Positions 3,820 through 38,516 of a DNA stretch of 64,000 nucleotides are shown here, piece after piece. Source of the stretch: Marsupella aquatica. Taxonomy: Eukaryota > Plantae > Marchantiophyta. The stretch covers positions 23,024,015-23,088,014 of the forward strand of contig OZ316893.1 of NCBI GenBank assembly GCA_973895155.1, given 5' to 3'. The notes beneath the pieces were generated by a model, which saw nothing but the letters and a program-made list of their open reading frames with translations, did no database searches and was not told the origin of the DNA. The first letter of the stretch is position 1. Each line of letters starts with the position of its first letter. The position numbers and the translations under genes were made by a program.

Positions 3820-6800
3820 CAAAGGCACAAGCAGGTGGGAAGGGAAGGATTTGTGCTCCTTTCTTACGGGAGTCATTTTCTTTGGGCACAAGGCCCTATG
3901 AGCATTGAAGAGGGGGAGAGGGGGAGCGAGCACTCCTTTCCCTTGGGAGTTTTTAATTAGGCTCAAGGCCCTATGCTGCAGCTTGGAGAAGGGGTGAGAG
4001 GGGAGTTTTAATGCTCCCTCCTTTCGGGAGCACTTAAGTGGTTTCAAGGGCATGAGGCCCTATAAATGTACGAGCTAGCCAGGAGGGCTTGGGTGCATTT
4101 AAGGAGGGTACGAGGAAGTATTTAAAGGGTCAATGCGCGACCCTATGCGCGGGAGGGCAAGGCACGGAAAAGTTTTTTTTAAAGAATTTTTTTTGAGGTC
4201 GGTAGGGACGAACGCTCGTCCCTAGTCTTAATTTTATTTTTCTTTGTTCTTTTCTTTTTCTCTCTGCGATTACTCTTACTTCCCAGGTGGACAGGTGTTG
4301 GCTCCACATTTCTTCTGCTGTAAAATTTGACTGTACTTTGATTCCCTCCGAAAGATACTTTTCCAGAGAGCTGAATTTTGGCCAAAATTTCCAAATTTGG
4401 CGGTTGTCGAGGCAGAATTTTTTTGCACTGCTTTGCAAGGGGATACTCAAGGGAGTTGAGCACGGGCCTGTGAAATCGATTTGCATTTAACTATTGCGAA
4501 ATGTTTTTGGGACCTAAGATACCCGACGGGGGTCAAAACGGCCATTTTGACCCCCCTCCGGTCCGGGTTGAATAAGTTTTTGCTGGAGAAGTTTTTTGCC
4601 AAATCATTTTCAGATCTTGGTAGTGTACCTTGCAGGCTACGCGGCAGTGCATTCCATTTCCACTTTCACCAACTTTCATTTTTTGGTGACTTTTTGGGTG
4701 GAGGTATTTCGGTTGTGTTTCCTGTGTGTTTGTGGCAGCATCAATGACTTCAAGAAAGCTTGCGGCGCCAAAGTTTGAGGTGGAGAAGTTTGACGGGAAG
4801 GTCAGCTTTAGCCTTTGGACTCGAAAGGTGACCAATGTGTTGATCCAGCAGGGTCTTGAGAAGACCCTCACTGGAGTGAAACCCTCGAATCTAACAGATG
4901 AGGAGTGGGAGGACATGTCGGTGCAGGCGTGTAGCACAATTGAGTTGTTCTTGGCAAACAACATTCTCAAGAACGTGTTGGGGATGGATCGGAATGCCAA
5001 GAAAATCTGGGATATGCTTACTCAGCTATACCAGAGTACTTCGTTGACTACTCGCATTTATCACTTGGAGCGGCTGTTCAGGTTGAAGTTGAAGGATGGT
5101 GGCAACATGCGTGATCACCTCAGTCTCTTTGATGAGATTGTGCACGAGGTGGCCACGGCGGGAGACAAGTTGACCGATGAGTATCTTGCGATACATTTGT
5201 TGATGTCGCTTCCTCAGAGCTATTCAACGTTGGTGACAGTCATCACACATGATAAGTCTACGTTGAAGCTGGATGAGGTAAAGGCTACCATTCTTGCAGA
5301 ATGGGGCAAGCGACAACTTTCTGGCCGTGACAATGAGTCTGCTGCCTTAGTGGTTAGAGGCAGATCGACGGAGCGTACTACGGATCAGTCTAGATCTAAA
5401 TCACATAGTAGATCTAAATCTAAGTCCCGTAGTAAGAAAGTGTAGTGTTGGCATTGCCATGAGAAGGGCCACACCAAGTGGAATTGTCCTTCTCTGTCGA
5501 AGCAGAAGCGTCCTGCTTCCAATGGTGCGTCCTCATCGTCGGCTGGTATTGTGATTGCTGATAATGAGGATGCTGCTGAAGTGCTATGTATTGGTGCTGT
5601 GAATTCTGTGTATGATAATAAATGGATGTTGGATTCGGGTTCCTCTTATCACGTGTGTCCAACGCAATCGTATTTCTCCACTTACCAACCTTGTACCGGT
5701 ACTGTGGAAATCGGAAATGGAGTCCGATGTGCGATTGTTGGCATGGGGACTATCAAATTCCGGATGTTTGATGGTGTTGTGCGAGCACTGACGGGAGTCA
5801 GACACATACCAGACATCTCTAAGAATTTGATTTCTCTTGGTGCTTTGGAAGCTGGTGGATCTCATTTCACTGCACGTGATGGTGCGCTCTTTGTCGTCAA
5901 AGATGATGTATCTTTGATTAAGGCGCTACGGCAGAATAATTTGTACATCTTGGAAGGAGATGTCATTGCTCCTAGAGTGGAGCATGTGGATTCTGTGGTG
6001 GAACGTTCGGATGCAGCGGCAACATCTGCTGTAGAGTCATCTACGGCTGCTTCAATTGAAGCACCCTCAACATCTGGTCGCACACAAGCCATAGATTTGT
6101 GGCATGCACGGTTGGGGCACCTGAGTGGTAAAGGATTGGCAGCCTTGGCCAACAGAGATTTGTTGCAAGGCACTCAATCTGGTAAACTCTCTTTCTATGA
6201 AGATTGCATCTTCGGCAAGCAGAGGAGAGTGAGTTTCAGTTCTAGTTCATACCATTCTCATGAAATTCTTGAGTATGTACATTCGGATGTTTGGGGTCCA
6301 GCGCCGGAGCCGTCGTTGGGTGGAGCCAGATATTTTGTGACGTTTGTAGATGATTACTCTCGAATGTGTTGGTTGTACTACATGAAGGAGAAGTCTCAAG
6401 TCTTTGAGATTTTCAAGGAGTGGAAAGCCATGGTAGAACTACAAACTGGGAAGGAGTTGAAGTGTGTTCGGTCCGATAACGGTGGCGAGTATAAGTCCAA
6501 TGAGTTTGATCAATTTGGTCGGGACCTTGGCCTCAAGCGTCATTACGCTGTATCGGAGACCCCGCAGCAGAATGGAGTTGCAGAACGGTTGAATCGGACA
6601 TTACTGGAGAAAGCACGCAGCATGCTATGTAAGTCCAAGTTGCCCAACAACTTTTGGGCTGAAGCTATCAACCAAGCTGCATACGTCTACAATCTGTCAC
6701 CGCATAGTAGTAAGTTGATGCAGACTCCATTTGAGTTGTGGTATAAGAGACCTGCTGATTACTCTAGACTCCGAGTTTTTGGTTGTGCTGCCTATGTTCA

Positions 6801-9126
6801 CATTGAGCAGACACATAGGTCTAAGTTGGATCCCAAGTCTAAGAAATGTATTTTTCTAGGCTTTAGTCCTGGGCAGAAGGGCTATAAATTGTGGGATCCT
6901 GTTGATTGCAAGGCAGTTGTGAGCAGAAATGTTGTTTTTGACGAAGAATGGTTGTCAAGACCCCGGGATATTCAGGAGGAACAGGTGGAGGAACCCACTA
7001 CGGTGGAGCTTGGTGGTGATGAGGAAACTGTTGGTCCCTCTGGTAGAGGTGCAGTTCCTCAACCAAGGCGCTCCACCAGGGCCAATTTTGGCCAACCCCC
7101 TGATAGATTTGGTTTTGCAGATCCTCGTGTTCAAGTTGTTGAACATGAAGATGATCCCGGTGTTGTTTTGCTTACTGAAGATGGAGACCCCTCTAGCTAT
7201 GAAGACACTATGGCCTCTCCAGAGAAGGATAAGTGGATGGAGGCAATGTTGAAGGAGATGAATTCTTTGAAGAAGAATTCAACTTGGCGCTTAACTGACA
7301 TGCCTCGCGGGAAGACACTGGTTCCGTGTAGATGGTTGTACAAGAAGAAGCAGGATGGCACTTACAAGGCACGCCTTGTGGCCAAAGGATACACCCAAAA
7401 GGAGGGCTTGGACTACACAGAGATTTTCTCACCAGTTGTCAAACTCGCCACTATCCGTGTTTTACTTGCGATTGTGGCATTCTATGATCTTGAGTTAGAT
7501 CAGATGGATGTAATTACTGTTTTCCTGCATGGATTGCTTGATGTGGAGATTTATATGACTCAGCCTCCAGGTTTTATTCACGAGAAGACCAGACACTTGG
7601 TGTGTAAGCTCTTGCGCTCGTTATACGGATTGAAGCAGAGTCCCAGACAGTGGAATAAGCGTTTTGATTCCTTCATGTTATCTCAGGGGTTCACACGAAG
7701 TGAACATGATTGTTGTATTTACATGAAGGAGGTGGAGAATTACTCACGCTTTGGTTACATTGTGTTGGCATTGTACGTGGATGACATGCTTATCCTGGCT
7801 GAGAATAAGTCTGATGTTGCCCATCTGAAAGCAATGCTGAGTAAGGAGTTTTCAATGAAGGACTTGGGTCAGGCCAAGAAGACACTAGGGATGGAGATTC
7901 ATCGTGACAGGGAGCAAAGGCAATTATGGTTGTCTCAGAGGCAGTATTTGGAGAAGGTACTTGCCAAGTATGGAATGGAGAATGCAAAACCAGTTGGTAC
8001 TCCATTGGCTTCTCACTTTAAACTCTCAAAGAATGATTGCCCTTCTAGTGAGAGTGATAGATTGGCGATGAAACATGTTCCCTATGATAGTGTTGTGGGT
8101 AGTTTGATGTATGCGATGACATGCACTAGACCTGACATTGCCCATGCTGTTAGCATTTTGAGCAGATTTATGGCAAATCCTGGTAAGCTTCACTGGGAAG
8201 CAGTGAAGTGGGTTTTGCGGTATCTGAAAGGTACCTTAGATTGTGGGATCTTATTTGACGGTAAAGCAGACTCTACATTAGAGTTGGAAGGTTTTTTAGA
8301 TTCAGATTATGCTGGTCACTTGGATAACAGGAAGTCTACTACAGGCTATGTGTTTATGCTAGGTGGAGGTTGTATCAGCTGGAAGTCGGCAACTCAATCT
8401 TGTGTTGCGTTGTCTACTACTGAGGCTGAGTACATGGCTGCATGTGAGGCAACCAAGGAGCTGATCTAGCTACGGAGATTGGTGAGTGATCTGGGTCTTT
8501 CACCTGAAAGACCGGTGCTGCTGTGCGACAGTCAAAGTGCTTTGCATCTGGCTAAGAACCCTGTGTTCCATGCCAGGACAAAGCACATTGATATTCGTTA
8601 TCACTTCATCCGTGAGGTGATTGAGACGAAGCAGATGTTTCTGGAGAAGGTGGCTTCAGAGGAGAATGCGGCAGACATGCTTACCAAAGTTCTACCTACC
8701 AGTAGCTTTAGTCATTGTGTGGATATTATTAATGTTAGGGCCAAACCAGTGACTATGTAAATTTATATGTTACTTAGTTACATATTGTATATCACCTGAC
8801 TCATTGTGTGAACTTGAGTCAAGGTGGAGATTGTTAGGAATTGACTCTAGTTCCCGACATAGTTAGCTTGGCCTTACTAGGGTTAATTTTAACCCTAGAT
8901 TACATTAGGATAAGATCCGCTTAGTTTAGGTCCACTCATCTTGGCCCCCTTGGGGGGTATAGGCTGGAGGGAGAGCACTCTCTCCCTCATTCTTCACATG
9001 TACTCTCATTTGCTATGGAGCCTTCAGGAGTTTCTCCACTCGGGGTGTCTCGTCAGTGTAGCGTCTGATTGAGTGTCTCTCATGTTTCCGCATTGCTGTC
9101 TAGTCCGGAGCCGACGGTTTTTTACA
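3820..9126 (+). mobile_element. 5'-truncated Ty1/copia retrotransposon (gag-pol 4744-8760 with two nonsense codons; 3' LTR 8832-9126)
   Basis: Gag KFEVEKFDG, CWHC zinc knuckle, protease LDSG, integrase HSDVWG/VRSDNGGEY, RT KARLVAKGY/YVDDML, RNase [10 protein letters not shown], in INT-RT-RH order. TAG at 5443-5445 and 8467-8469 in a single frame. PPT AAGGTGGAGA precedes TGTTAGG...TTACA. No 5' LTR or PBS found. Confidence 0.95.
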
Positions 9127-10624
9127 CTCACCTGATTCGCCAACTCCTCATCGTTTTGTAGTAGCTTTAAGGCCATTCTCCTTTCCCATACTCTGCACCT
9201 TCCACTGCTACTCGGCTCAGAAGCTATTCTTCGTCCCAGACTTAGAAGTTGGTCATGTATCTCAATATTCTTATTGTCCTCCACATGAATAACAAGAGAC
9301 CTGTCCACCAAGGTTTGCCATTGTATGGTCTCATACTGCGTCTCATAAGCTTTCCTCCAAGCTGCTTTTGCGTCGCGCAAACACCAAGAACGCCCTTGAA
9401 AGAAAGTTGTGGCATCTAGGAACATTTGCTGCTCCGTCCCTTCAAGTCCGTCGTAGCTCACTCTCAACTTTGCCCACAATCTCTTGTCAAGATCTCGAAT
9501 ATTGTCAGCCCTTATCACAGCTTGCAAAGTTTGCTGCCAAAACTTGCGATCCTGTTCGAATTTGAGGTGCTTTCCAAGAACTACAAGAGTAAGGGGCAGC
9601 CCAGAACACTTCTCCACTATAGCCACCATATCACGTTTCAAGTTTGCGGGTAAATTTGCGGGCTGTGGGAAAGAATGGCTTAGGAACAGCTTTTCTGAAT
9701 CTTTTTGGTTCAAAAATGGGACTCTAAAAATATCAACATCGTCCACGCGCTTGAGAATGTCCCAATCACGAGATGTAACAATGAACCGACTTTGTGGAGA
9801 GGGACCATCAACGAGGTGTGACAAGACGGTTATTTCAAGATCATCACTGATATTATCCAAAACAAGTAGCAGTTGCTTGTCGTTCAAAGCAGACCGGTTC
9901 TCTTTGTCTTCAACCTTCCTTCCAAGGCGGTGCATATGTTTCCACACTACCTTCTTTACCTCCTCAATGCCCCCTCCTTCCACCTTGAGATCAGGGACAA
10001 AACAACTGTACTCGTATGCGGGACTTAGTTCATTGAATACCGCCCGTGCGAGAGTGGTTTTCCCAAGCCCACCCATGCCCACCAAGCCCAGCGTTGGAAA
10101 TTTCTGAAGCCTCCTTTTAACCTCCTGTACGAGAACGTCCATATTGACCATGTGCTTTGGCAGAAATTCCCGATTTTGACGAATAGCTTGCCTTTCAACC
10201 ACGGCTCTTTCTTCCTAGATTTGCAACAAGAGCAGGTTAGAAAAACAGCAATCCTAAAGTTTTGATATGAATTTTGACCTTTCATTTGAGAAGACAGGAC
10301 ACAGGATGTCACTGGAAAACAAGGACATGCTGTTGTTGCATGAAATGACTCGTTAGTTAAAGTAACGCCCTTTGCTGAAGTTTGTTTCTGGGCAACCTTT
10401 GAATTGTCGCAAACGCTGCTGAGGAGTGTTGTGAGGGCGTTGAACCTTCTGGAGGTTTTTGTCTCTGGTCTGCAAACGGAGAAATGGTCCGCGCTACTAT
10501 CAAGATTAAAATTCACCCCATCTCTGGCAGAGGCTTCTGGTACTACAACAATACCTCGGAATATGCCCTGCGTGACCACAGAAACGATGTCAAATTGACA
10601 CGAAAAGGCAAATTGGACATCGCT

Positions 10625-10764
10625 TTTTTTTTCTTTTTTCTTTTTTTCTTTTTTAAATAAAGGAGAAATTTATGAAACCACACAGAAAGGGACTAGTGAG
10701 ACACAATATTAGTGTCTCTATTCAAGTGAGCTACCACAAAATCAAAATCATGTCTCTATGAGTT
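10625..10764 (-). mobile_element. Short poly(A)-tailed retroposed insertion (SINE or truncated LINE) in an intron of NLR copy A
   Basis: T-rich run 10624-10654 plus about 110 bp, flanked by the direct repeat AAATTGGACAT[C/T]GCT (10610 and 10765). The paralog has a single copy of this target at about 31677. Confidence 0.7.
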
Positions 10765-10972
10765 AAATTGGACATTGCTTTAGCTTTACCACTGGTGACT
10801 TTAATAATACTTCAATAGTTCAGAGACTCAAGGTACAGGCATTTATGTCAACTGAGCTACCACAAAATCATGCTCCTATGAGCTAAATTGGACATGGCTT
10901 TAGCTTTACCACTGGTGAGTTTAATAATACTTCAATAGTTCAGAGACTCAAGGTACAGGCATTTATGTCAAC
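10727..10972. repeat. Tandem duplication of about 125 bp in the same intron
   Basis: TGAGCTACCACAAAATCA...ATTTATGTCAAC at 10727-10852 and 10853-10972. Confidence 0.9.
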
Positions 10973-13900
10973 TACGGTAGATGTCTTGTTCCCATATATT
11001 CATAAAGAAACAAACTCTACGAGGTAGATGAATATGCTTAGAAAAGATGATGAAGTTTGTGCTTGAACGAGACTTCCTAGTTTAAGCTCATCCAGAAACC
11101 ACAAGTGCCGAATGTGCATTTGACCCGTCAAACGACTGGCCAAATTCATGACAAAGCTTTCTACTATGTGAACCGACTAAAATAAAGATAGATTATGAGA
11201 TCATCTACAAGGATAGCAGCTGTACCGTTTTCACAGGGAGCATTTCCCCCAATCCTTCGATTTTCCACTTTGGGTAACACGTGCACAGATTTTGGAAGTA
11301 GGAATTCAGCCGGCTCGTGTCTTTGCTTAAAGTGGTGAAGTAATCAAACAAAGGGCGGCTCAAGGCACTTCTTGCTCTTCCTATATCAGAACTGCCGTGA
11401 TGAGGGGTACTATAATAAAATACCCCTCTCAAGCTATCAAGGAAATTCTTTTTCTTGGCCGGATTCATGCTGGACTCGAACGTGTCGTGTGCATGATGAC
11501 ACAGGTCCTTGATGACCAAACCCCCAAAAGAGTGGCCCACCAAGACCACTGGGCAGTGAGGCGTCTGACCAATGTTTGCCTGCATCAGGTCACTGATCAA
11601 GTTTTCGCTAATTATATGCATGTCAAAGTTTTCGGCAGTTCAGGACGGCGTGTAAAAATAGTCAAAGCTTTCTCTGACGTTGACGGTTCCAGCAGTTCAG
11701 GACGGCGTGTAAAAATAGTCAATCCATAGACGAGAGTGACAAGAGACCGTATGGAAGATCACCTGATGAGCTTGCAGATTCCATTGTTGCACCCTTCTGC
11801 GGCGTCGATTAGCCACAACGGGTCGGAGCAAGAAAAAGCCAAGTAGACAGCACAAGATCACAATAGACAATTGGCCTACTTCGTCAGTCGCCACTAGAAT
11901 CGGAGCAAATCTCGCCGAGATTACGGAAACCCAATTGATCGCCTCCATGGCGAGCCTCAGAAGATCGAAAGACTTTATCTTGTGGCCCTCACGCGATGGG
12001 CCCTTGCAGACCAAATTATGCACTTAGCCCCAGAGTGAGTCAACTGGTCAGATCCATCCTCGTCGTGAGGCCAGACCACCAATAATCATTCAAGAAGCAT
12101 TGAAATTCCCTGAAGGCTGGACAGTTTCCATTATAAAGTCTAGCGTCAATTGCTGATCAGGTACCTTCATAATGTTCAGCTAGTGATCTCCTATATTTGT
12201 TGCACCGTAAAAATCGTCTCAGACTTATCACCATGTAGATAGACGCGGATTAGCCAACTCGATTGAATGAGGGAAAGCACATAGTTGTGCCTTGCTCGTC
12301 CTAGAACCTTTTCTCTCGCAACTACACTGAGGACGTAAGCAGGCATATCAGAAATTGGAAGATAAAGCTACCGTAGTTCGTCTTGAGCGCAGCGCAGTGA
12401 AAAATATATGAAAACAAAAGTCAGTAGGAGACTTCAGGCAACCGTAGAACCATCATCCGTGCTGCGCACGTACTCATAACTGGTGAGCAACCAAGCCATT
12501 GTTGTGGCCACAACTGACTCTAGCTAGCCAATTTACGAAGGACTGAACTCTCCTCAGCAGAGTTAGAGGACATCCACGGCGACCTGACGGCAAAACAGAT
12601 AGAATGAATCGAAGCGGAGGGTTGGCAGTGCAATCCACTTCCAAAGTCAAAGTACAACAGAATCTGCAAGCTTGTGATGGAATTGTGTCTGTCTCTATCA
12701 ACGTGATTGAGTGCCAAGTAATAAAGACTTATTTCCCGTCCTTGTGCCTACGCTTTCCGAAAACTTTGAGAGTAACTGGAACGATACCAGTCCGATTCAG
12801 GAACCATGTGACGTTCGCCTGCCAACACACATCAACGCATCTGTACAGAGAGGACATACACTACAGCTAGAGCTCACAGAAACAACACAATTGTCTGTAC
12901 TGAACCAGAGCAAAGAGAACGGTGGAAGTACCTTTCTGGCTGGAAAGTAACAATGGCGGTAGTGGATAGATTCAATCTGGGGAGCCTCAATCTCGACCAT
13001 CTCGAGGTCCATTGACTGAGCAATTGGCGATAACTTGTACTAGATGTTCAATTGTGAAGCACTCAGAAACTCGGCCCTGAATGGTCACTCCCTCGTCGAA
13101 ATTCACCAAAGCGTGTCCAGCAGAATCTGCGCCAAGAAGTCCAGATAGAAGGAATTGAGGTTTCTTTTGTCTGACTCTCGTGAGTCAAAAATTGTCAAAT
13201 GTGTACAGTTTTTTAAAGTTGGTTTCACAAATATATGTTTATAAATTCTTTGGATAGATGTACCTTAGTGTGATGTTTTTTGTCATTTAGTAAAACTTTG
13301 GACTTGAGATTCTCGTGTGTGTTTTTTTTTCACTATTAAATATTGTCTTACACATCCAAAATGGACAGGGTAGATTAGAATGTATTCATTAGAGTACAAT
13401 ACAAATGGTCATGTTACTTACAATCATGATTGCACATACCATGGGAATGACCAAAGGGTTCATAGGCATGCCCATGTCATGTAAGATTGTCATAGCATGT
13501 GAGACTTATATCCATGCTTACACTCTAGAGATATGCTTGCATATAGGTATTTTGTAGCGTTAAGATGAAGGGATAAAGCTGGGCAAAATAAACCTAAAAT
13601 ATTCTATGGTGAAATCTTATATTGTATTGAACATTTTTTCTTTGAAAGAAAATTTCATTATTTTGGTAACCCCAACACAACCTGGTCCATCATAGCCTTA
13701 ATTTCCATTTGAACCCATGAACAAACATTTAGTTAATTTTTTGTATACTAAAAATGTATATAATATATGCTACACATGACATGACTGTTCTCAACCACAT
13801 TTGGTTAAGCTTTCATGAAATATGATCAATTATACTAACTATGTTTAATAACAACTATGGTTGGGAGGTCAAGCTTCCACTATGATAATTAATAAATATA

Positions 13901-26663: not shown

Positions 26664-29600
26664 TTAAAGTTCAAACTCCAGAAAAGCTACAGGAAACTCG
26701 ACCAAATAGTAGTAATCTTCTCTCGAATCTGCTTTTTTGAGGCCCAGAGCTAAGCATCTTTCGGCGTCCTTTTGAGCTCCATCTATGTCCCCCAGTAAGA
26801 ACTTGACATAGCCCCGGTGCTTCAAACATTCATAGTCATCAGCGCTAATTTCCAAGGCTCTTGTCAGGTCTTCCAATGCTCCTTGGAGATTGCCTGCCAT
26901 TCGCTGTAGTATTCCGCTTACTTGCAAGAAGAAAACCCTATCATTGTAGCCACACACGCTGGCGTCAAAATCGTCCCAAACTGCAAGGGCTCCCAGAAAT
27001 TCCTTCTCCTTAACTTTTTCTTTGATTTTCTTATGTGACGACGTGAAAAGGCTTTCCACCCAATGCTCCCTTTCTTCCAGTCTAAAAAATGCCAAGGGCA
27101 ATTGCACCACAGGATCCATTGCCATGCATCTTTCTGCATCCTGTCGCGCTCCACTGTCATCCCCCATCAAGTATTTGACATAACCCCGATGCTTGAGCAG
27201 ATCATATTCGTCGTCGTCTATTTCCAAGGCTGCTGTCAGGTCTTCCAAAGCTCCTTGGATATCTCCTGCCATTCGCTTCAGTATTCCCCTTTCTTTCAGG
27301 AAGAAACGACTATCATGACAGCCACACACGCTGGCATCGAATTCATCCCAAATTTTAAGGGCTCCTAGGAATTCCTTCTCCTCTACCTTATCCATGACTC
27401 TCCCATGTGACAACCTGAAAAGATTTCCCACCGAATGCTGCCTCCCCTTCAGTCTGAATTCCAAATATGCTACGGGCAATCCTCCCAAACAGTTCTGCCC
27501 ATCCACCTTAGGCTCCATCGCCATACATCTTTCTGCATCCCTTTGCGCTCCACTCTTATCCCCCATCAAGTATTTCACGTAACCCCGATGCTTAAGCAGC
27601 TCATAATTGTTGTCGTCTGTTTCCAAGGCAGCTGTCAGGTCTTCCAAGGCTCCATCGAGATCACCTGCCATTCGCTTCAATAAACCCCTTTCTTTCAAGA
27701 AGAAAACCCTATGATAATAGCCACCAACCCTGGCGTCGAAATCGTCCCAAATTGCAAGGGCTCCCAGAAATTCCTTCTCCTCTACCTTCTCCATAACTTT
27801 CTCATGTGAGGAGCTCCAAAGATGTCCCTCAACACCTTCACTTCCCTTCAGTCTGAATTCCATAAATGCTACGGACAATCCTCCCAAACAATCATACATC
27901 CCACGCTCCACAGGATCCATTGCCATGCATCTTTCTGCATCCTCTCGCGCTCCACTCTTATCCCCCATCAAGTATTTGACGTAACCCCGATGCTTGAGCA
28001 GCTTATAGTTATCGTCGTCTATTTCGAAGGCTGTTGTCAGGTCTTCCAGAGCTCCATGGAGATCGCCTACGATTCGCTTCAATATTCCCCTTTCTTGCAA
28101 GGAATAAACCCGCGAACATTGGGAATACACCGTGACATCAAAATCACACCAGATTGCCAATGCCCCCTGGAAGTCTGAAATCCTCACCTTGTCCATCATT
28201 TCACAATGTGCTGAGCACAAATTTGTCGAGTGCTCATTGCGTTCTGTTTTTCCTGCCAGCCTGAAATCCATGTATGTTACTGTTTCTTTCCCAAAACCGA
28301 AGGGGAGCCACCAAATAGGACCGTTTGCGCGATCTGTGCGAAGAAGTCTTAAGGCATTTGCACCATCATCATTTGCACGACCGAGATCCCCCAACAAGAA
28401 GTTCACGTAGCCTCGGTAACTCCAACACTCATACAGGCTGCGGTACTCACGAGATTCTGCGTCATCAGATGATACTTCCAATGCGGCAGTGAGATCTTCC
28501 AAGGCTCCCTGGAGATCTCCCATATGACATCTCATTATGCCGCTCGCTTGCAACAACAATTTATGCCACCTCGGTTTTAGCATAGCGAGGTTTGCGCAAC
28601 AAATATATTCCAGGGCTCCCTGATAGTCATGTTCCGACACCTTCTCCATCGCATTTTCGTGCATGAAGATCATGAGCGCCTCTAACAGTATGATGTTGTC
28701 CTCATGGGCCAAGGAGAAACGCTTATCTTGCACCTTAAAGATCTTCTGTGATGTGGCGAGAGGGGCCACACCAGCGTCTCCCAACCAGGCAGGTAATTCC
28801 TGGACGTATGGGAGGACAGAGAGCTCCAAAGTGTGCAAAGACTGCATACTCTTCATGAAGTCAGGAATGCTTCTTATAGAAAGCCCCCGAAGAACGAGAC
28901 TAGTAAGCGCCGTCAGTTCGGCAAGAGACTCGGGCAGCATCTTGATCGGGATAAGAGTTCTCTCTCCAATGATTTCCAAGTTAAGTAACTGGGTGAGTTC
29001 GCCGAAGGGAATGACTGAGAGGATATTCGAACGACAATTGGTCAGCTCTAGGTGCCTCAAACTGGAGAGTTTTCCGAATGAATTCACGACAGCTTCTAAT
29101 TGACATCCTTGCAACTTGAGGTCTTCTAATCCTTCTAGATGTCCAAAGGAGTCGGGGACTCGTAAGTCGCAAAAACTACGGATTTCTAGGTGCTTCAGGG
29201 CAGATAGGTGTCCAAAGGAATGGGGCAAAGCTTGCAGTTTGTTACAATCAGTGATTTCTAGGTGCTTCAAGGCAGACAGGTGTCCAAAGGAATCGGACAA
29301 GACTTGCAATTCGTGACAACGATGAATTTCTAGGTGCGTCAAGGCAGCCAGGGTTCCAAATGAAGTAGACAGGAAGTTGAGACTCGGACAAAACTTGAAC
29401 ACAAGACGATCGAGTGCGGATAGATCCCCGAAGGTGTCAGGAAGGGAACGTAATTCAAAACACCAGTGAAATTCAAGATCTTTCAACTTGGATAGAGCAC
29501 CGAACTTTTCGGGCAGAATATGAAGACGATGGCAGTACATGAATTTCAAGTACTGCAACTGCGATAATTTGCAAAACGTCTCAGGCAAACTCTTTAGATC

Positions 29601-32600
29601 GCAATCATATAACACCAAATGTTCCAACTGGGATAAATTGCCGAATTCATCCGGTACACAGTGCAAGCTTGTACTGATAAAGATTCTAAGAGCTGATAAT
29701 TGTCCAATAGATCTGGGTAGGACCTCCACACCGTGTAGTTGCAAAACTACGAGACTACCTTGAAGGACAAAGTTGAAAGTATCAAGACGCCCACTGCATT
29801 TGAGTAGGACAAGCTTACTCGGGAGTGACCTCTCTTCCTCAACTCCGTCAATGAACAGCGGGCCATCCATTTCCAGATACAGCAATTTCTTCAGTTTCTT
29901 AAGCGTATGGCTTGGAATGTGAATATCTTCACTTGAGGAAGCATCACTTGTGGAAGCATCCCAATGGTTGGACAACCGCAAGTCATGAATATCCTACAAT
30001 GTCATAATATCCTCACCATTTAGTTCAGATCTCATCAAATCAGCGCTAGTTGAGTCCAATACATACGAACGACTACTGCAAACCCAGCTAACTAATTGTC
30101 ATTCCTGAAACCCTCCCTTACTGCTTTGAGATAAAATGCTTTGCAATGTTACATATGCCTCAAACATTTGAAGCCCAAAACAAACTTGACATCTCCTCAC
30201 TACAGAATTTTATCTCATCAATCTAGAGCTCACCTGATTCGCCAACTCCTCATCGTTTTGTAGTAGCTTTAAGGCAATTCTCCGATCCCATACTCTGCAC
30301 CTTCCACTGTTACTTGGCTCAGAAGCTATTTTTCGTCCCAGACTTAGAAGTTGGTCATGGGTCTTAATACTCTCATTCTCCTCCACATGATAAACAAGAG
30401 ACCTGTCCACCAAGGTTTGCCATTGTATGGTCTCATACTGCGTCTCATAAGCTTTCCTCCAAGCTGCTTTTGCATCGCGCAAACACCAAAAATACCCTTG
30501 AAAGAAAGTTGTGGCATCTAGGAACATTTGCTGCTCCACCTCGTCGAGTCCGTCGTAGCTCACTCTCAACTTTGCCCACAATCTCTTGTCAAGATCTCGA
30601 ATATTGTCAGCATTTATCACAGCTTGCAAAGTTTGCTGCCAAAACTTGCGATCCTGTTCGAATTTGAGGTGCTTTCCAAGAACTTCAAGCGTGAGGGGCA
30701 GCCCAGAACACTTCTCCACTATAGCCACCATATCACGTTTCAAGTTTGCGGGTAGATTTGCGGGCTGTGGGAAAGCATGGCTTAGGAACAGCTTTTCTGA
30801 ATCTTTTTGGTTCAAAAATGGGACTTTAAAAATATCAACATCGTCCACGCGCTTGAGAATGTCCCCATCACGAGATGTAACAATGAACCGACTTTGTGGA
30901 GAGGGACCATCAACGAGGTGTGATAACACGGTTATATCAAGATCATCACTGATATTATCCAAAACAAGTAGCAGTTGCTTGTCATTTAAAGTAGACCAGT
31001 TCTCGTCGTCTTCAACCCCCGCTTTAACCTTCCTTCCAAGGCGGTGCATATGTTTCCACACTACCTTCTTTACCTCCTCAACAGCCCGTCCTTTCACCTC
31101 CAGATCAGGGACAAAGCAACTGTACTCGTATGCGGGACTTAGTTCATTGAATACCGCCCGTGCGAGAGTGGTTTTCCCAAGCCCACCCATGCCCACCAAG
31201 CCCAGCGTTGGAAATTTCTGAAGCCTGCTTTTAACCTCCTGTACGAGTACGTCCATATTGACCAGTTGCTTTGGCAGAAATTCCCGATTTTGACGAATAG
31301 CTTGCCTTTCAAACACGGCTCGTTCTTCCTAGATTTGCAACAAGAGCAGGTTAGAAAAACAGCAATCCTAAAGTCCTTTGATATGAATTTTGACCTTTCA
31401 GTTGAGAAGACAGGACACAGGATGTCACTGGAAAACAAGGACATGCTGTAGTTCTGGGCAACCTTTGAATTGTCGCAAACGCTGCTGAGTGTTGTGAGGG
31501 CGTTGAACCTTCGGGAGGTTTTAGTCTCTGGTCTGCACACGGAGAAATGGTCTGCGCTACTATCAAGATTAAAATTCACCCCATCTCTGGCAGAGCCTTC
31601 TGGTACTACAACAATACCTCGGAATACGCCCTGCATGGCCACAGAAACGATGTCAAATTGATGTACCAAAAAGGCAAATTGGACATCGCTTTACCACTGG
31701 TGAGTCTTCTACTCAATAACACTTTCATTAGTTCAGAGACTCAAGGTAAGGGCATTCATGTAAACTATGATATGTCTTGTACCTATATATATATTCATAA
31801 AAACACAAACTCTACATGGTAGATGAATATGCTTAGAAAAAATATTGAAGTTTGTGCTTGGACGAGACTTCCCAGTTTTAGCTCATCCAGACACCACAGT
31901 GCCCAATGTTCAATTGACCCGTCAAATGACTGGCCAAATTCATGACAAGACTTGCTACTAAGCGAACCGACTAAAAGAAAGATAGCCGATTAGGAAATCA
32001 TCTGGAAGGACAGCAGCAGTACCGTTTTCACAGGGAGCATTTCCCCCAATCCTTCGATTTTCCACTTTGGGTAACACGTGCACAAATTTTGGAAGTATGA
32101 ATTCAGCCGGCTCGTGTCTTTGCTTAGAGTGGTGAAGTAATCAAACAAAGGGCGGCTCAAGGCACTTCTTGCTCTTCCTATATCAGAACTGCCGTGATGA
32201 GGGGTACTATATTAAAATACCCCTCTCAAGCTATCAAGGAAATTCTTTTTCTTGGCCGCATTCATGCTGGACTCGAATGTGTCGTGTGCTTGATGACACA
32301 GGTCCTTGATGACCAAACCCCCAAAAGAGTGGCCCACCAAGACCACTGGGCAATGAGGCGTCTGACCAATGTTTGCCTGCATCAGATCACTGATCAAGTT
32401 TTCGCTAATTATATGCATGTCAAAGTTTTCAGCAGAACCCTTTCTCAGGCCTTCAATATAAGAGACACCTAGGATGTGAGCGTCAGGGAACTCCTCCGCG
32501 AGCCAAACCTTCGGCCAAATACAGCTTTCGTCCCCACTCATCCAGGTAGATAAGTGTGCTTCGGCGGATTCCCCAAATGGAAGCCCGTGGAAGAATAATA

Positions 32601-33066
32601 CTTGTATGGCGGGATCACCCTTAGGCTTGTGAAGCTCGTAGAGGGAGTCATTCACCTGAGATATCACGAACACAGGAAGGTAAGTATTGATTAGTGGTCA
32701 TCACTCTTCATCTGGTTTCGACAGGACGCTACAATAGAAGAGAAACTCAGACATGTGAATATCAAGTGTATGAGAAGCTTTCTCTGAAACCGACGGTTTG
32801 AGCAGTTTTGGATGGAATGTTAAACCAATCAACCAACTGAATGTCACTAAGGAGAGATGAGGGACCGTATGGATGATCACCTCACGTGCTTGGAGATTCC
32901 ATTGTTGCACCTTGCTGCGGCGTCGATTAGCTACAACGGGTCTGAGGAAGAATAAGCCAAGTAGACAGCACAAGATCACAATAGACAGTTGGGCTACTTC
33001 GTCAGTCGCCACTAGAATCGGAGCAAATCTCGCCGAAATTACGGAAACACAATTGATCGCCTCCAT
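26664..33066 (-). CDS. NLR copy B: membrane anchor + alpha/beta-hydrolase + NB-ARC + LRR + TPR super-repeats; exons 33066-32881, 32655-32023, 31630-31463, 31328-30234, 29993-26664; one in-frame TAA at 32212-32214
   Basis: All four introns have GT-AG ends and are phase 0, joining 62+211+56+365+1109 codons. Motifs: LSIVILCCLLGLFFL-RRR; VLFFHGL, WPKVWL, GHSFGG, TPHHGS, ADHFSVCRP; GMGGLGKTT, LLLVLDN, IVTSRD, GLPL, THD; 24-aa LRRs; five TPR-like units. Functional status is uncertain because of the stop. Confidence 0.88.
26667..28660 (-). repeat. Coding tandem array of about 400-bp TPR-like units (one diverged plus four conserved)
   Basis: Units 28256-27849, 27848-27450 (399 bp, 133 aa), 27449-27078 and 27077-26667. 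Core ERGILKRMAGDLxGALEDLTAALEI...YELLKHRGYVKYLMGDxSGAxxDAERC. Confidence 0.93.
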
Positions 33067-33188
33067 TGCGAGCCTCAGAAGAAAGACTTTGTCTAGTGGC
33101 CCCAACGCGATGGGCCCTTGCAGATCAAATTATGCGCTTAGCCCCAGAATGAGTCAACTGGTCAGATCCATCCTCGTCGTGAGGCCAG

Positions 33189-36100
33189 TATTAGAAAAGG
33201 TTTAATTGGTAGGCCACCGTCCAAAGTGGTAGGCCACCGTTCTTAGTTGTAGGCCACCGTCCTAAGTGGTAGGCCACCGTGCTAAATTAGTGACTTAAAT
33301 TAGACCATGAGGTGAATTATGTTATAGGCACATGTGAGAGAATGTGTAACATGAGAGAATACACAATATTCTGGTTTGACTTGACCTGGCATCCAAGGGA
33401 TGCCCTCCATGTATAAAACCCCTCACTACTCAATGACATACACACCGCATTTCCACATTCTTGGGCTCATGGATTTCTAACATGGTATCAGAGCCTTGTT
33501 ACGTTACTTCTGAATTGTGTGACTTCATATTTCTTATGAGGAGAGGAGAGTTGGTCTAGAGAGAGGATTCCCCCTCTAGAACTATTTGAATCAAATTTGA
33601 AGAAATAAGAATTGGACTCAATTCCCTACCAATTGATGAGAAAAGTTTTTCAAGCAGGTACATCGGGCAGCAAGACAGATTTTTTTGGGGGGGAGCAGTT
33701 GAGGCCAAATCTAAGCACGATTAGATGGCATTTCAGAAGGAGCAGAGTTTGTCGAATTCACGTTTTGGGAGAGAGGACGCTTGATCTCAAATTTTTTTTT
33801 TGGCATTGTGAAGAATGTGACGACGCAGATGCAACGGAAAGCATTCCGAGTAGGTCATCTGTGGTGAGTAACAATAGAAGTGTTCTATTGTGAATGCAGT
33901 GCTTCTTGCAGTGGTCAAGAAGATTTTTTGCGGTGGCAAGAAGATTATTGGATAGTGATCCAGTCAAAGGCGTTGGTCCTTTTCTATTGAGCAACGGCTC
34001 AACATGACGTCAAACATAAAGATCCCAAAGTTTGATGGCACATATTTCCAAGTGTGGAAAAGAAAACTGACTTTGAGTTTCAAAGATGAGAAGCTGATGG
34101 GAATTGTTGATGGCACTAGCCCGAAGCCAACAACAACTCCAACGTACACCCCAACAAAAGATGAATTGGAAGAGTGGGATCACAAAGATAACAAGGCACT
34201 TCGAATTCTGACACAAGGTATGGAGAATTCACAAGCACATCATATCAGTAGTGCCAAGACTGCTGCGGAAGCATGGTCAACACTTCTCAACATGTTTGAA
34301 GCAAGTGATGCCATAACCAAGATGTATCTTCATGACAAGTTGGCTACTCTCAAGATGAAGGAAGGAGAAAGCTTCATAAAGCATGTACATGCTTTAAGGG
34401 GAATTTTGGAGCAACTTAATGCAGCGGGAGCACCAGTGTTAGATGAGGATGCACGATTGGCACTCATGAGGAGCATGCCTCAAAGTTGGAGGAGGGCAAT
34501 TATTCCTCTAAGGAGGGATACAACTCTTACTCTTCCGTCCTTGATTGCATATCTATTGCAAGAGGAAACGATGCAAAAAACGGAGGACTTGGCAGGATTG
34601 ACAACAGCACTTTACATTGACTCAAGGCTAGGGTCAAAATCTACCATCTCACAAGGTAGTAATTTTGGGAAGGCTAGCACCTCCCAAAAACCATGGAAGG
34701 AGAAAGCTTCCAAGATGAAATGTCACTTTTGTAAACGGAAAGGACATTTTATTCGCGACTGCAGAGCAAGGATAGCCAAGGAGGGAAATGATGCCAAGAA
34801 GGTTCAAGCGAACTCAGTCATACATAAGTTGTATGTGGCATCAATTGGGAATTTCGATGAAGGAGATTCAAGTTGGTATGTGGACACAGCTGCAACCCAA
34901 CATATGGCGCATCATCGAGAAACTTTGTGGAATACAAAGCTTGGGATCATGCCCAAGTAGTGTATTTGGGAGATGATTCGACCTTGCAAATTGCTGGAGT
35001 GGGAAGTGTTCCCATTAAACTCCAAGATGGTTCAGTGAGGATGTGGAAAAGGTGCTTCATGTACCTTGTCTCACAAAGAATCTATTTTCAGTGAACCAAC
35101 TTGATGAAGAAGGAGGAGAGGCTATCATCAAGAAAGGTTCATGTACTTTGAAGAGTCCAAGTGGCTCTATCATTAGTACTTGCTTTACTGTTAACAAGTT
35201 ATATAAACTTGGTGTAACTGTAAGCCTCCATAGTGCAAATATTGCTATCACAACAAGTGGGGCGATGTGGCATAAAAGGCTTGGCCACATCAATGAAGCT
35301 AGAATGCAACAACTGCAAGACCACAACATGGTGGAAGGCATTGGTAAATTTGATGGAGTTTCTTTGTCTAATTGCGGAGCTTGTGCAAAGGCAAAGTCTA
35401 CAAAGTTGAAATATCCGAAGGGTGGAAGATCAAAGGCAACTGAACTTCTTGCCTTAGTTCATTCAGATATTTGTGGCCCAGTTCGCATTGCCACTCATTC
35501 AGGCTATGTCTACTTCATCACATTCATTGATGATTTCTCGAGATATTGTACCATATATCTCTTGAGGCACAAGTCAGAAGCCTTTGAGAAATTCAAAGAG
35601 TTTAAAGCTCTTGCAGAAACACAAACCGGCAAAAAGGTTAAGGTGTTGCGGTCTGACAATGGAGGAGAGTACAAGTCGACAACCTTTGACCTATTTTGCA
35701 AGGAACATGGGATTGCAAGGCAATTTACAGTTGCAGAGACTCCTCAACAAAATGGAGTAGCTGAGAGAAAGAATAGAACACTAGTGGAGGCAGTTCTATC
35801 CTTGTTGAATCATTCAGGTCTATCTCAATCCTATTGGGGGGAAGCTATTCATATAGCTAACTACCTTCAAAATCGAACACCCACAAAAGCACTAGATGCC
35901 GACAAGACACCATATGAGCTTTGGTATGGGAGAAAACCAAACTTGTCACATCTTAGGGTTTTTGGATGTAGAGCACATCTTAACATCAACAAAAACCATC
36001 GAGGGAAGCTTGACAATCATGCCGAAGATTGTATTTTTTTGGGATATCCAGAAGACTCCACATCAAGAGATGTCTATAGAGTTCAACGAACAACCGATCG

Positions 36101-38516
36101 CAAGGTGATTGTGGCAAGAGATGTTCGATTTAAAGAAGACCAGCCCGGTGGAAAAGGCCCAGTTACTTCAGAGTTGGATGATCCGGTGCTATTTGAACTT
36201 CCAATAGCACTAGCACCAACACCAACTCCGGTGGGAGCACCAGTGCTAGCACCGGCACCAGGCCCAGTGGGAGCACCAGCACTAGCACCAGTGGGAGCAC
36301 CGGCTTTAGCTCAAGTGGGAGCTAATGCACCTGATGTTAGAGAAGAGGCTACTGAAATGTCAGGCACATCTACTTCAAGAGGACCACAACCAAGTAGTCC
36401 ACTACCACGATCCAGGTCCACAGAATCATTTGCAACACATTTTGATGAATTTGAAGGTTCAATAGAAGGTGATGCCTCTACTCACGTTGAATTCTCAGAA
36501 CCTGAATTTGGAAGGGGAAAGAGGAAGAAGATACCAACGAGGAGATATGGTTTTGACTCCGATTCAGCCATTGTGGCCCTAGTGACTAAATCTGGACCAA
36601 GAATGGCGGAACCTACTTCTTTGAAGGAGGCACTTACAAGACCAGATGCAGAGCAATGGAGGAAAGCCATTAATGATGAGTTAGACTCATTGAAGAAAAA
36701 CAACACATGGACCATAGTCAAGTTTCCTCAAAATCGAAAGGCGGTGGGCTGCAAGTGGGTTTTCAAGTTGAAGTACAACCCGGATGGAAGCATTGCAAGA
36801 TACAAAGCTAGACTTGTAGCCAAAGGCTATTCTCAAGTCTATGGGGTTGATTACTTGGATACTTTTTCACCAGTAGTGAAAATCACATCTATAAGGCTCA
36901 TTCTATCCTTGGTGGCCTTTTATGACCTTGAGGCCATCCTTTTAGATGTGAAGACAGCATTCCTGAATGGTATACTCACGGAACCAATCTACATGGAGTT
37001 GCCTGAAGGATTAGAGTGGTTGGAGAAAATTCTTGACCCTGAAATGGTATGTCTCCTATTGAGGGCATTATATGGCCTCAAACAATCCTCTAGGTTATGG
37101 TATAAGAGGATTGACACTTTCTTGTTAAGCATTGGCTTTAGAAAGTGCATAGCTGACTCAAATGTGTACTATTATGAGTCAGGAGGAAACTTTGTGATAT
37201 TAGCTCTATATGTTGATGATTGCATACTTGCAAGCAATGACACCAACATATTAGCTGAAGTCAAAACGACACTCATGAAGGAATTCGAGATGAGTGACTT
37301 AGGCAATATACATAATTGCCTTGGTATGGAAATCTCCCGCAACAGAGAAGAGGGTTGGCTCAAGATGTCTCAAGAGAGATACATCTTGGACAAATTAAGC
37401 ACTTTCAACATGGAGAATTGCAAGGCAGTGCATACTCCAGTTGAGTTGGGCTTAAAGCTAAGCAAGGAGGATAGCCCACAAACTGAAGATGAAAAGTTAC
37501 AGATGGAGAGTGTACCATACCAGAATGCAGTTGGAAGCCTCATGTGGGCTATGATCTACACAAGGCCCGACTTATCCTATGCAGTTGGATCAGTGGCACA
37601 ATTCATGTCCAATCCAGGTCCAAAGCATTGGATGGTTGTGAAGCGAATTTTTCGGTACTTGAAAGGCACATCAAGTATGGGTTTGGTGTATAAAAGATCA
37701 AAATCTTTTATTCCCTTACATGGATATACTGATGCTGATTGGGGAGGAGATATTGACACAAGAAGATCAACCTCTGGTTATTGTTTCATGCTCTCAGGTG
37801 CAGTAGTGAGTTGGGCAAGCAAGAAGCAAAAATCTGTAGCCTTGTCTAGCACCGAAGCAGAGTACATGGCCTTATCAAAGGCATGCACTGAGATAGTATG
37901 GTTGAAAAGACTTCTTGGAGACTTGCATCATCAGCAAGCAAGAGCCGTCATTCATTGTGATAATCAAAGTGCTCTTAGCTTACTTGAAGCATCTCGGCTT
38001 CATGATAGGAGCAAGCACATCGATATTCAATATCACTTTAGTAGGGAACTAGTTGATAGTGGTGAAATAGAAGTAATCTATTGTCCCACCGAGGAAATGG
38101 CAGCGGACATTCTCACCAAAGGACTTCCAAAAAACAAACACATTTATTTGAGAAAAATGCTAAGGCTTTATTAGGGTTCTAATTTAGTCACTAAAGTAGG
38201 AGTATTAGAAAAGATTTAATTGGTAGGCCACCGTCCAAAGTGGTAGGCCACCGTCCTTAGTTGTAGGCCACCGTCCTAAGTGGTAGGCCACCGTCCTTAG
38301 TTGTGGGCCACCGTCCTAAATTAGTGACTTAAATTAGACCATGAGGTGAACTATGTTATAGGCACATGTGAGGGAATGTGTAGCATGAGAGAATACACAA
38401 TATTCTGGTTTGATTTGACCTAGCATCCAAGGGATGCCCTCCATGTATAAAACCCCTCACTACTCAATGACATACACATAGCATTTCCACATTCTTGGGC
38501 TCATGGATTTCTAACA
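33189..38516 (+). mobile_element. Full-length Ty1/copia retrotransposon (LTRs 33189-33482 and 38203-38516, TSD GCCAG, gag-pol 34004-38174 with two frameshifts)
   Basis: PBS TGGTATCAGAGC at 33483; PPT AAAGTAGGAG; GCCAG at 33184-33188 and 38517-38521; empty site in the paralog at 12070-12074. Motifs CHFCKRKGHFIRDC, HSDICG, LRSDNGGEY, YVDDCI, SKHIDIQYH. Frame changes near 34920 and 35040. Confidence 0.97.

What the first reader, a model, noticed from the sequence alone, without database searches (positions are those of the whole stretch)
26664..33066. Five-module NLR: membrane anchor - lipase-like hydrolase - NB-ARC - LRR - TPR super-repeat array
Seen: five phase-0 exons join into about 1800 codons. 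They encode a hydrophobic segment followed by RRR, an alpha/beta-hydrolase with a GHSFGG nucleophile elbow and a candidate catalytic His (ADHFSVCRP), a complete NB-ARC, a run of 24-aa LRRs, and about 660 aa of TPR-like repeats. Known: hydrolase-NB-LRR genes occur in liverworts and other non-flowering plants; plant TNP proteins and many fungal NLRs use TPRs instead of LRRs; this motif order matches the SERAC1/PGAP1/SesB-like hydrolases. Inference: having both LRR and a long TPR array, together with a membrane anchor, suggests a dual-sensor receptor whose output is a membrane-proximal lipid hydrolase. I do not recall this combination being characterised.
Basis: partly seen in the sequence, partly recalled or inferred. 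Interest (0 to 1): 0.85.

Follow-up and report, generated by a model that had tools for sequence, protein, structure and literature searches.

The report
Liverwort enzyme-NLR with swappable TPR tail
This gene, likely from a leafy liverwort, belongs to a known class of plant immune receptors with an enzyme head, but it adds five repeats of a predicted protein-binding module after its sensor part, a layout also found in one other liverwort and not found in the papers searched; this copy carries a premature stop and is likely broken.

Summary
Observation confirmed. Five GT-AG, phase-0 exons give 1803 codons: hydrophobic segment, alpha/beta-hydrolase, NB-ARC, LRR, then five ~133-aa modules of three TPRs each. 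One in-frame TAA sits at codon 210. A Copia element lies 122 bp upstream of the ATG. A far more decayed paralogue lies 21 kb away.

The gene is a hydrolase-NLR (HNL, Xue 2012) with the class's intron pattern. The layout is not unique: an open Calypogeia fissa protein (CAM6121861.1) is colinear across all four junctions, and two more C. fissa HNLs carry LRR plus TPR. None of 23 Marchantia or Riccia hydrolase hits has the module.

New here: the same module ends liverwort NB-ARC-ARM-TPR proteins. It sits on two HNL lineages that an AU test refuses to join, which points to a swapped cassette. Its predicted groove residues are conserved rather than variable, which argues against a second diversifying sensor. 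The hydrophobic N-terminus is optional (3 of 57 relatives). Splicing, enzyme activity and substrate are untested.

Eight literature searches found no description of this layout; two key supplements were unreadable. The scan noted a Sphagnum HNL before, not this form. Verdict: new variant of a known kind, likely a recent pseudogene.

The parts
32881..33066 (-). Exon 1 (aa 1-62): N-terminal segment with hydrophobic stretch aa 27-45 (32988-32932) followed by RRR; predicted signal-anchor
   Evidence: 23 of 53 aligned residues identical to the C. fissa P0002 N-terminus; same open exon and donor in paralogue B
32023..32655 (-). Exon 2 (aa 63-273): alpha/beta-hydrolase core; HG oxyanion motif, Ser172 (32328-32326) in GHSFGG, candidate acid Glu267 (32043-32041)
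   Evidence: (70% to P0002; 39-43% to Marchantia HNLs, some named 'protein SERAC1')
32212..32214 (-). In-frame TAA at codon 210, between Ser172 and the acid and His residues; the only lesion in 5409 coding bases
   Evidence: paralogue B has a Tyr codon here; 57 of 57 relatives have F or Y
31463..31630 (-). Exon 3 (aa 274-329): end of hydrolase with His301 (31549-31547) in ADHFSVCRP
   Evidence: His in 56 of 58 rows
30234..31328 (-). Exon 4 (aa 330-694): NB-ARC with P-loop GMGGLGKTT, Walker B LLVLDN (usually DD), GLPL and THD, plus winged helix
   Evidence: (PF00931 E 2e-26, WHD_ROQ1)
28671..29993 (-). Exon 5, first part (aa 695-1135): 24-aa LRRs and an LRR-to-TPR junction motif (aa ~1085-1125) found only in TPR carriers
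   Evidence: LRR_14 E 1e-26; 72-bp repeat family D20
26664..28670 (-). Exon 5, second part (aa 1136-1803): five modules (28670-28257, 28256-27849, 27848-27450, 27449-27078, 27077-26667), each three TPR hairpins plus an LGxxxVxYLxFxL-like tail (shortened in module 4); stop at 26666-26664
33189..38516 (+). Copia-type LTR retroelement inserted 122 bp upstream of the ATG; 5-bp target-site duplication GCCAG (33184-33188 and 38517-38521); LTRs differ at 10 of 294 sites
   Evidence: the flank beyond 38517 matches paralogue B's upstream DNA at 90%
2200..11948 (-). Paralogue B, decayed: about 340 bp lost across the intron 1 acceptor and the start of exon 2; LRR and module 1 replaced by a second Copia-type insertion (about 3850-9130); stop and frameshifts in the TPR array. 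Lower end approximate.
   Evidence: NB-ARC 90% identical in protein to gene A

Best explanation
This is a hydrolase-NB-ARC-LRR (HNL) receptor gene, likely from a leafy liverwort, with five tandem three-TPR modules after the LRR; it has one premature stop and an upstream retroelement and is likely a recent pseudogene. An intact version would likely work as an enzyme-output NLR. Ligand binding at the LRR would release the NB-ARC switch, and oligomerisation would cluster serine-hydrolase heads (Ser172-Glu267-His301), in this subgroup probably tethered to a membrane, to cleave an ester and trigger cell death. The TPR modules likely form an add-on post-LRR domain that binds one conserved partner (a guarded host protein, a partner NLR, or the module's own tail) rather than acting as a second variable pathogen sensor. 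The cassette of late LRRs plus modules was likely swapped between HNL lineages and then amplified in tandem (2 to 5 copies). Shown here: exon structure, domains, conservation, module sharing and tree conflict. Inferred: splicing, anchoring, catalysis, oligomerisation, the partner, and loss of function of this copy.
For: Colinear open homologue P0002 (CAM6121861.1): 43/68/62/57/48% identity over N-terminus, hydrolase, NB-ARC, LRR and TPR, with all four junctions falling in aligned sequence. HNL introns as in Xue 2012 section 8. Triad candidates conserved (Ser 54, Glu 55, His 56 of 58 rows); in the AF2 model of the 66%-identical P0032 they lie at a strand-helix elbow, at the end of the second-last strand and after the last strand; alpha/beta-hydrolase fold Z 15-17. 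The partial NB-ARC's top matches are TNL resistosomes RPP1, ROQ1 and WRR4A. Two Marchantia hydrolase domains gave HR-like death in N. benthamiana (Chia 2024 passages). AF2 gives six helices per module at pLDDT mostly 70-90, and Foldseek hits are TPR solenoids. The module also ends NB-ARC-ARM proteins of Calypogeia, Riccia and Marchantia. First modules of all LRR-linked proteins form one branch (98), whereas their NB-ARCs are rejected as one clade (p-AU 5e-11), and P0004's best matches switch groups inside the LRR. Groove positions TPR2 Q5 33/37, E6 31/37, R12 29/37 and TPR3 K5 33/37, H6 30/37 are conserved. Recent loss: 8.2 nonsense changes would be expected had the gene been neutral since the split from B, and 1 is seen (P 0.003).
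Against: The stop could be an assembly error or a rare allele. One lesion where 3.7 are expected since the retroelement inserted (P 0.12) leaves room for function after the insertion. The hydropathy of the matching P0002 segment is borderline (1.83), and P0004 and P0005 have none. Triad geometry could not be measured, and Glu284 (52 of 58) is an alternative acid. AF2 does not place the tail or the linkers (pLDDT below 50) and pTM is 0.32, so no tail-in-groove contact is seen. Conserved groove residues may reflect folding or recent common ancestry. The tree conflict could also be an ancestral cassette lost many times, and LRR similarity can arise from shared repeat consensus. All full-length support comes from one species' automated gene models.
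Confidence: 0.6

Rival explanations
1. One reading: the LRR and the TPR array each recognise variable pathogen molecules, and the TPR array diversifies like the TPR repeats of fungal sesB-NB-ARC-TPR receptors.
For: Module number varies from 2 to 5 among relatives. Fungal NLR TPRs show repeat-number polymorphism and positive selection (Dyrka 2014 passages). The first TPR of each module and the linkers are variable.
Against: TPR2 and TPR3 groove positions are conserved across both receptor classes. dN/dS between window modules is 0.21-0.54 in 9 of 10 pairs, with 1 pair saturated. Modules are 35-71% identical, not homogenised.
Confidence: 0.2
2. The hydrolase is not the catalytic output but a lipase-like scaffold or decoy (EDS1-like role), and the receptor signals through partners that dock on the TPR modules.
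For: The review passage lists binding or EDS1-like roles as open (PMC10952240). The same hydrolase is fused to U-box, B-lectin, DnaJ and FG-GAP domains in relatives. 4 of 58 rows have Cys in place of the serine.
Against: All three triad candidates and the HG motif are kept in over 90% of 58 rows. Isolated Marchantia hydrolase domains cause cell death, although catalytic mutants were not reported in the passages read.
Confidence: 0.12
3. The gene is functional in nature: the TAA is an assembly error or minor allele, and the LTR supplies or leaves intact a promoter.
For: It is the single lesion in 5409 bases, all splice sites are intact, and gene A's NB-ARC branch is shorter than B's (0.027 against 0.067).
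Against: The stop is in the assembly. A 5.3-kb element separates the ATG from the upstream DNA shared with B. Walker B carries an unusual Asn. The neighbour copy is dead, as is common in such clusters.
Confidence: 0.3
4. The five-part protein is an annotation artefact: separate genes or pseudo-exons joined by eye.
For: The C. fissa annotation splits many relatives into pieces (P0001, P0003, P0089, P0093, P0213), and its models may be ab initio.
Against: LRR and TPR lie in one 1109-codon open frame. Three full-length C. fissa proteins have hydrolase, NB-ARC, LRR and module. Three of the four introns are the published HNL introns.
Confidence: 0.04

Closest known systems
Hydrolase-NBS-LRR class (HNL, Xue et al. 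2012 PMC3352924; Hyd-NLR, Chia et al. 2024 PMC11218826)
   Same: Alpha/beta-hydrolase, NB-ARC and LRR in that order; phase-0 introns inside and after the hydrolase and an intron after the NB-ARC; NB-ARC groups with Marchantia, Riccia and Calypogeia HNLs.
   Different: Extra first exon with a hydrophobic segment; five three-TPR modules after the LRR (0 of 23 Marchantia/Riccia hydrolase hits have the module); this copy has a stop.
Calypogeia fissa proteins CAM6121861.1 (P0002), CAM6103613.1 (P0004) and P0005, unnamed database models
   Same: Hydrolase, NB-ARC, LRR, junction motif and modules; P0002 also shares the N-terminal segment.
   Different: Three modules in P0002 and two in P0004 and P0005, against five here; P0004 and P0005 lack the hydrophobic N-terminus and have an NB-ARC from another HNL lineage.
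Liverwort NB-ARC-ARM-TPR proteins (P0014, P0015, P0021, P0047, P0049; probably related to 'CC-NB-ARM' in PMC12512272 and to 'NHAT' in PMC12513842, whose definition I could not read)
   Same: They end in the same TPR pair plus LGxxxVxYLxYxL-like tail; P0047 and P0049 also start with the same hydrolase.
   Different: ARM repeats instead of LRR, a distant NB-ARC clade (support 99), and one module only.
Plant TIR-NB-ARC-TPR (TNP; Johanndrees et al. PMC9806590)
   Same: NB-ARC with C-terminal TPRs.
   Different: TIR head and no LRR. That paper calls TNP the only TPR-containing NLR-like class in plants, a statement that does not cover this layout.
Fungal sesB-like/NB-ARC/TPR NLRs (Dyrka et al. 2014 PMC4986451)
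   Same: SERAC1-like hydrolase head, NB-ARC, TPR array of variable length.
   Different: No LRR in fungal NLRs; their TPRs are reported as hypervariable, whereas these have conserved groove positions.
Post-LRR C-JID domain of TNLs (RPP1, ROQ1)
   Same: An extra domain after the LRR on a TNL-related NB-ARC.
   Different: C-JID is a single beta-sandwich; here the post-LRR part is a repeated helical module.

Membership tests
HNL / Hyd-NLR | N-terminal alpha/beta-hydrolase domain | tested here: met
   70% identity to P0002 and 39-43% to Marchantia HNLs; fold of the 66%-identical P0032 matches hydrolases at Z 15-17, rmsd about 3-4 A over about 210 residues
HNL / Hyd-NLR | Central NB-ARC that groups with HNLs | tested here: met
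   PF00931 E 2e-26; lies among Calypogeia, Marchantia and Riccia HNLs
HNL / Hyd-NLR | LRR domain after the NB-ARC | tested here: met
   LRR_14 E 1e-26, LRR_8 E 4e-16
HNL / Hyd-NLR | Phase-0 intron inside the hydrolase, phase-0 intron between hydrolase and NBS, intron after NBS | tested here: met
   Introns 2, 3 and 4 against Xue 2012 section 8; exact codon positions were not compared with Marchantia genes because the figure was not seen
HNL / Hyd-NLR | Uninterrupted reading frame in this copy | tested here: not met
   TAA at codon 210; this lowers 'functional member', not 'gene of this family'
HNL / Hyd-NLR | Hydrolase-dependent cell death | not testable with these tools
   needs expression in planta
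SERAC1/PGAP1/SesB-like serine hydrolase | GxSxG nucleophile elbow with acid and His at canonical strand positions | tested here: met
   Conservation and DSSP of the P0032 model; canonical positions are recalled; distances could not be measured
SERAC1/PGAP1/SesB-like serine hydrolase | Curated DUF676/PGAP1 profile match | tested here: inconclusive
   Window exon 2 has no hit at E 0.001; P0004 and P0005 pass DUF676 and P0035 passes PGAP1
SERAC1/PGAP1/SesB-like serine hydrolase | Lipid substrate | not testable with these tools
   Fold matches tie among lipases, esterases and dehalogenases
TNP (TIR-NB-ARC-TPR) | N-terminal TIR domain | tested here: not met
   Exons 1 and 2 give no TIR hit; the N-terminal domain is a hydrolase
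TNP (TIR-NB-ARC-TPR) | TPRs in place of LRRs | tested here: not met
   Both are present
Liverwort NB-ARC-ARM-TPR | Armadillo/HEAT repeats after the NB-ARC | tested here: not met
   No Arm or HEAT hit among 21 families for exon 5
Liverwort NB-ARC-ARM-TPR | C-terminal TPR module with conserved tail | tested here: met
   The module profile hits 10 such proteins at E 1e-25 to 1e-31 (Z=1000), 9 of them through to the tail
NLR with integrated decoy domain | Extra domain resembling a host protein targeted by pathogens | tested here: inconclusive
   Hits that cover the whole module were liverwort NLR-type proteins or short unnamed fragments; no stand-alone host protein was identified, but generic TPR proteins filled 140 of 150 rows
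Membrane-anchored protein | Transmembrane signal-anchor | tested here: inconclusive
   Hydropathy only (2.51, followed by RRR); no topology predictor was available

The most novel reading that the evidence does not exclude
Leafy liverworts have an undescribed NLR subclass in which a portable three-TPR module, shared with ARM-type NB-ARC proteins, is swapped between receptor lineages and amplified in tandem. The module docks one conserved partner and so links a membrane-tethered lipid-hydrolase resistosome to a common liverwort immune hub, with module number tuning the response.
Probability: 0.25. Interest if true: 0.75.

Novelty: new variant of a known kind. Interest (0 to 1): 0.5.

Why it matters
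HNLs are the dominant NLR class reported for liverworts, and their enzyme output and ligands are still open. A module with conserved groove residues, shared by two unrelated NB-ARC classes, gives one concrete bait for finding a common partner. The open C. fissa protein CAM6121861.1 gives a ready construct for catalytic-mutant, anchor-deletion and module-deletion tests. The layout also qualifies the published statement that TNP is the only TPR-bearing NLR-like class in plants. The window's own copy is probably a dead gene, so it matters as a pointer to the subfamily.

Tried and rejected
RNA check: no RNA holder listed. The four listed runs behaved as DNA: introns were covered and no joint matched an intron. 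They may include the source sample, so they are not independent. Laying them on the stop did not settle it: the difference table lists nothing at 32212, short contigs centred there carry one unlisted difference, and paralogue B differs from A at just that base, so an allele cannot be told from a paralogue.

No whole genome is held, so family size could not be counted. The careful NB-ARC tree did not finish; one search is the quick tree on 48 of 68 rows, with 20 left out for short or no NB-ARC match. The profile search of 1.84 billion representatives was crowded by generic TPR proteins: only 10 of 150 rows look like true module carriers, 9 of them reaching the tail, so the distribution outside liverworts is poorly tested. 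No TPR solved structure matched the tail. A PDB sequence search with a related hydrolase (P0038) gave only a weak hydrolase hit at E 0.46. PGAP1 was not among the 50 listed fold matches, which excludes nothing. The protein atlas did not answer.

The Hsp70/90 carboxylate-clamp idea was considered and dropped: the recalled K/N/N/K/R positions read H/M/E/E/H in the modules (numbering recalled). Tail-in-groove binding could not be seen in the model. No complex prediction was sent, because no partner is named. The supplements of Dong 2025 (Note 4, Fig. 18) and Chia 2024 could not be read and may list this layout.
Full report
Observation. The minus strand holds five exons (33066-32881, 32655-32023, 31630-31463, 31328-30234, 29993-26664) with GT-AG, phase-0 introns of 225, 392, 134 and 240 bp. 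They give 1803 codons with one internal TAA at codon 210. Exon 5 is a single 1109-codon open frame. Pfam finds NB-ARC in exon 4 (E 2e-26) and both LRR (1e-26) and TPR families (down to 2e-20) in exon 5. The hydrolase exon matches only weakly.

Is the joined model real? No RNA test was possible (see Tried and rejected). Independent support comes from homology. A search with the TPR region gave 31 proteins, the top five all from Calypogeia fissa. P0002 (CAM6121861.1) aligns along the whole model, with 43, 68, 62, 57 and 48% identity over N-terminus, hydrolase, NB-ARC, LRR and TPR, and the four exon junctions fall in aligned sequence. Introns 2-4 match the three conserved HNL intron locations described by Xue et al. 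2012 (section 8 read whole; other passages). The window's organism is not given; from these relatives it is likely a leafy liverwort (inference).

The hydrolase. A search with exon 2 read through with X returned 55 proteins: 28 from C. fissa, 23 from Marchantia or Riccia, 1 from Sphagnum and 3 unnamed. In an alignment of 58 rows (these 55, P0004, P0005 and the model), Ser172 is kept in 54, Glu267 in 55, His301 in 56 and Glu284 in 52. The stop codon's column is F or Y in all 57 relatives. An AF2 model of P0032 (66% identical, mean pLDDT 83) puts the Ser at a strand-helix elbow, the Glu at the end of the second-last strand and the His after the last strand. That is the canonical triad layout as I recall it. 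Fold searches give alpha/beta-hydrolases at Z 15-17, with lipases, esterases and dehalogenases tied, and TNL resistosomes for the partial NB-ARC. A serine hydrolase is therefore well supported; a lipid substrate is inference from the SERAC1/sesB kinship (Dyrka 2014 passages; database names).

The N-terminal segment. Its best 19-residue hydropathy is 2.51 and RRR follows it. Among 57 relatives only P0002 (1.83), P0048 (2.41) and P0057 (2.96) reach 1.8, many N-termini are too short to hold a helix, and P0004 and P0005 have none. Paralogue B keeps the exon open with the same donor. It is a plausible, optional anchor.

The TPR array. It consists of five modules of 124-138 aa, 35-71% identical. AF2 on an 18-row alignment gives six helices per module at pLDDT mostly 70-90. 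Linkers and tails fall below 50 and pTM is 0.32, so the arrangement of modules is unresolved. Sequence and fold matches are TPR proteins. A profile of the modules finds 3 copies in P0002, 2 each in P0003, P0004 and P0005, and 4 plus a fragment in P0001. It finds one copy at the end of ten NB-ARC-ARM-type proteins from Calypogeia, Riccia and Marchantia, two of which (P0047, P0049) also carry the hydrolase. Of the 55 hydrolase hits, 3 carry the module (P0002, P0047, P0049), and none of the 23 Marchantia or Riccia hits does. Bacterial-type TPR hits match only the generic TPR pair, not the tail. Further C. fissa fragments join LRR and module (P0089, P0093, P0213, P0233). A 40-residue junction motif built from carriers was found in 6 of 60 proteins tested, all carriers and five of them in the training set.

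History. In a quick tree of 38 modules, the first modules of all LRR-linked proteins form one branch (SH-aLRT 98), and the ARM-class modules form another (100). The NB-ARCs of the carriers do not group: the window gene goes with P0002 and P0003 (88-93), while P0004 and P0005 sit in another starred lineage. An AU test on 26 of the 48 rows rejects one clade (p 5e-11, LG+G4). I chose those rows after seeing the first tree, dropping near-copies, long branches and the ARM class; the group itself was named by the trait beforehand. Sliding BLAST of P0004 switches from its NB-ARC sisters to the window gene's wider group at about aa 800-870, inside the LRR. A swap of the late LRR plus module cassette is the simplest reading; an old cassette lost repeatedly is not excluded. 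The direction of exchange with the ARM class was not determined.

Sensor or dock? Across 37 module rows from both classes, positions that face the TPR groove (numbering recalled) are conserved: TPR2 Q5 33, E6 31, R12 29; TPR3 K5 33, H6 30. The first TPR and the linkers vary. dN/dS between window modules is 0.21-0.54 in 9 of 10 pairs. This fits one conserved partner better than the hypervariable TPRs of fungal NLRs, though it does not show binding.

Is this copy alive? It has the stop, an Asn at the second Walker B position (37 of 38 parsed relatives have Asp), and a Copia element at 33189-38516 with a GCCAG target-site duplication 122 bp before the ATG. Paralogue B, 21 kb away, has a Tyr codon at the stop position but is otherwise wrecked. 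With dS 0.076 between A and B, neutrality since the split predicts 8.2 nonsense changes against 1 seen (P 0.003). Neutrality since the insertion (LTRs differ at 10 of 294 sites) predicts 3.7 (P 0.12). These are rough figures that assume equal rates. The gene was under constraint until recently; I put about 70% on a recent pseudogene and 30% on an error or a minor allele.

Mechanism. Following the established NLR scheme, an intact receptor would rest in an ADP-bound state, be released by ligand binding at the LRR, oligomerise like its TNL relatives and bring hydrolase heads together, at a membrane where the anchor is present, to produce a death signal. Two Marchantia hydrolase domains caused HR-like death and ion leakage in N. 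benthamiana (Chia 2024 passages). The TPR modules would act as a post-LRR docking domain. All of these steps are inferred.

Literature. Searches were. I read passages of PMC10952240, bioRxiv 2022.10.19.512840, PMC7145615, PMC11218826 (no 'TPR' in the main text), PMC3352924, PMC12513842, PMC12512272, PMC9825502, PMC4986451 and PMC9806590. None of these passages describes hydrolase-NB-ARC-LRR-TPR, and PMC9806590 calls TNP the only TPR-containing NLR-like class in plants. Dong 2025 names a class 'NHAT' and ten subclasses defined in a supplement I could not read, and the Chia 2024 data sets were also unreadable. Either may already list this layout. The scan's own notes held no look-alike by sequence and one Sphagnum HNL by words.

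Verdict. The layout is real and conserved, and it is a new variant of a known class. The shared, swappable module is the part worth following up. This copy is probably dead. Interest 0.5.

Noticed in passing
window 46397-53252 (+): Third Copia-type element with LTRs 99% identical (46397-46740 and 52909-53252), so a young insertion; its gag-pol frame has several stops.
   Followed up: partly
window 44351-44797 (-): Last exon of a metallophosphoesterase-fold gene (PF12850); I recognise it from memory as retromer subunit VPS29.
   Followed up: partly
window 863-1528 and 21734-22813: Short tandem arrays (67-bp units; 19/35-bp units) of low-complexity DNA.
   Followed up: no
window 33189 and 38203: Both LTRs of the upstream element begin TA rather than the usual TG and hold a 20-bp internal repeat whose copy number differs between them.
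   Followed up: no
P0038, P0039, P0043, P0044, P0048, P0053, P0073: The same hydrolase is fused, without NB-ARC, to U-box, DnaJ, B-lectin or FG-GAP domains in C. fissa and in unnamed assemblies, suggesting a mobile effector domain.
   Followed up: no
P0047, P0049: C. fissa hydrolase-NB-ARC-ARM-TPR chimeras: an HNL-type head on an ARM-class NB-ARC.
   Followed up: partly
P0035, P0070: Riccia sorocarpa models in which a hydrolase domain lies internally, after an earlier NB-ARC; they may be tandem genes merged by annotation.
   Followed up: no
window 25338-25993: An approximately 250-bp tandem duplication (81% identity) downstream of the gene.
   Followed up: no
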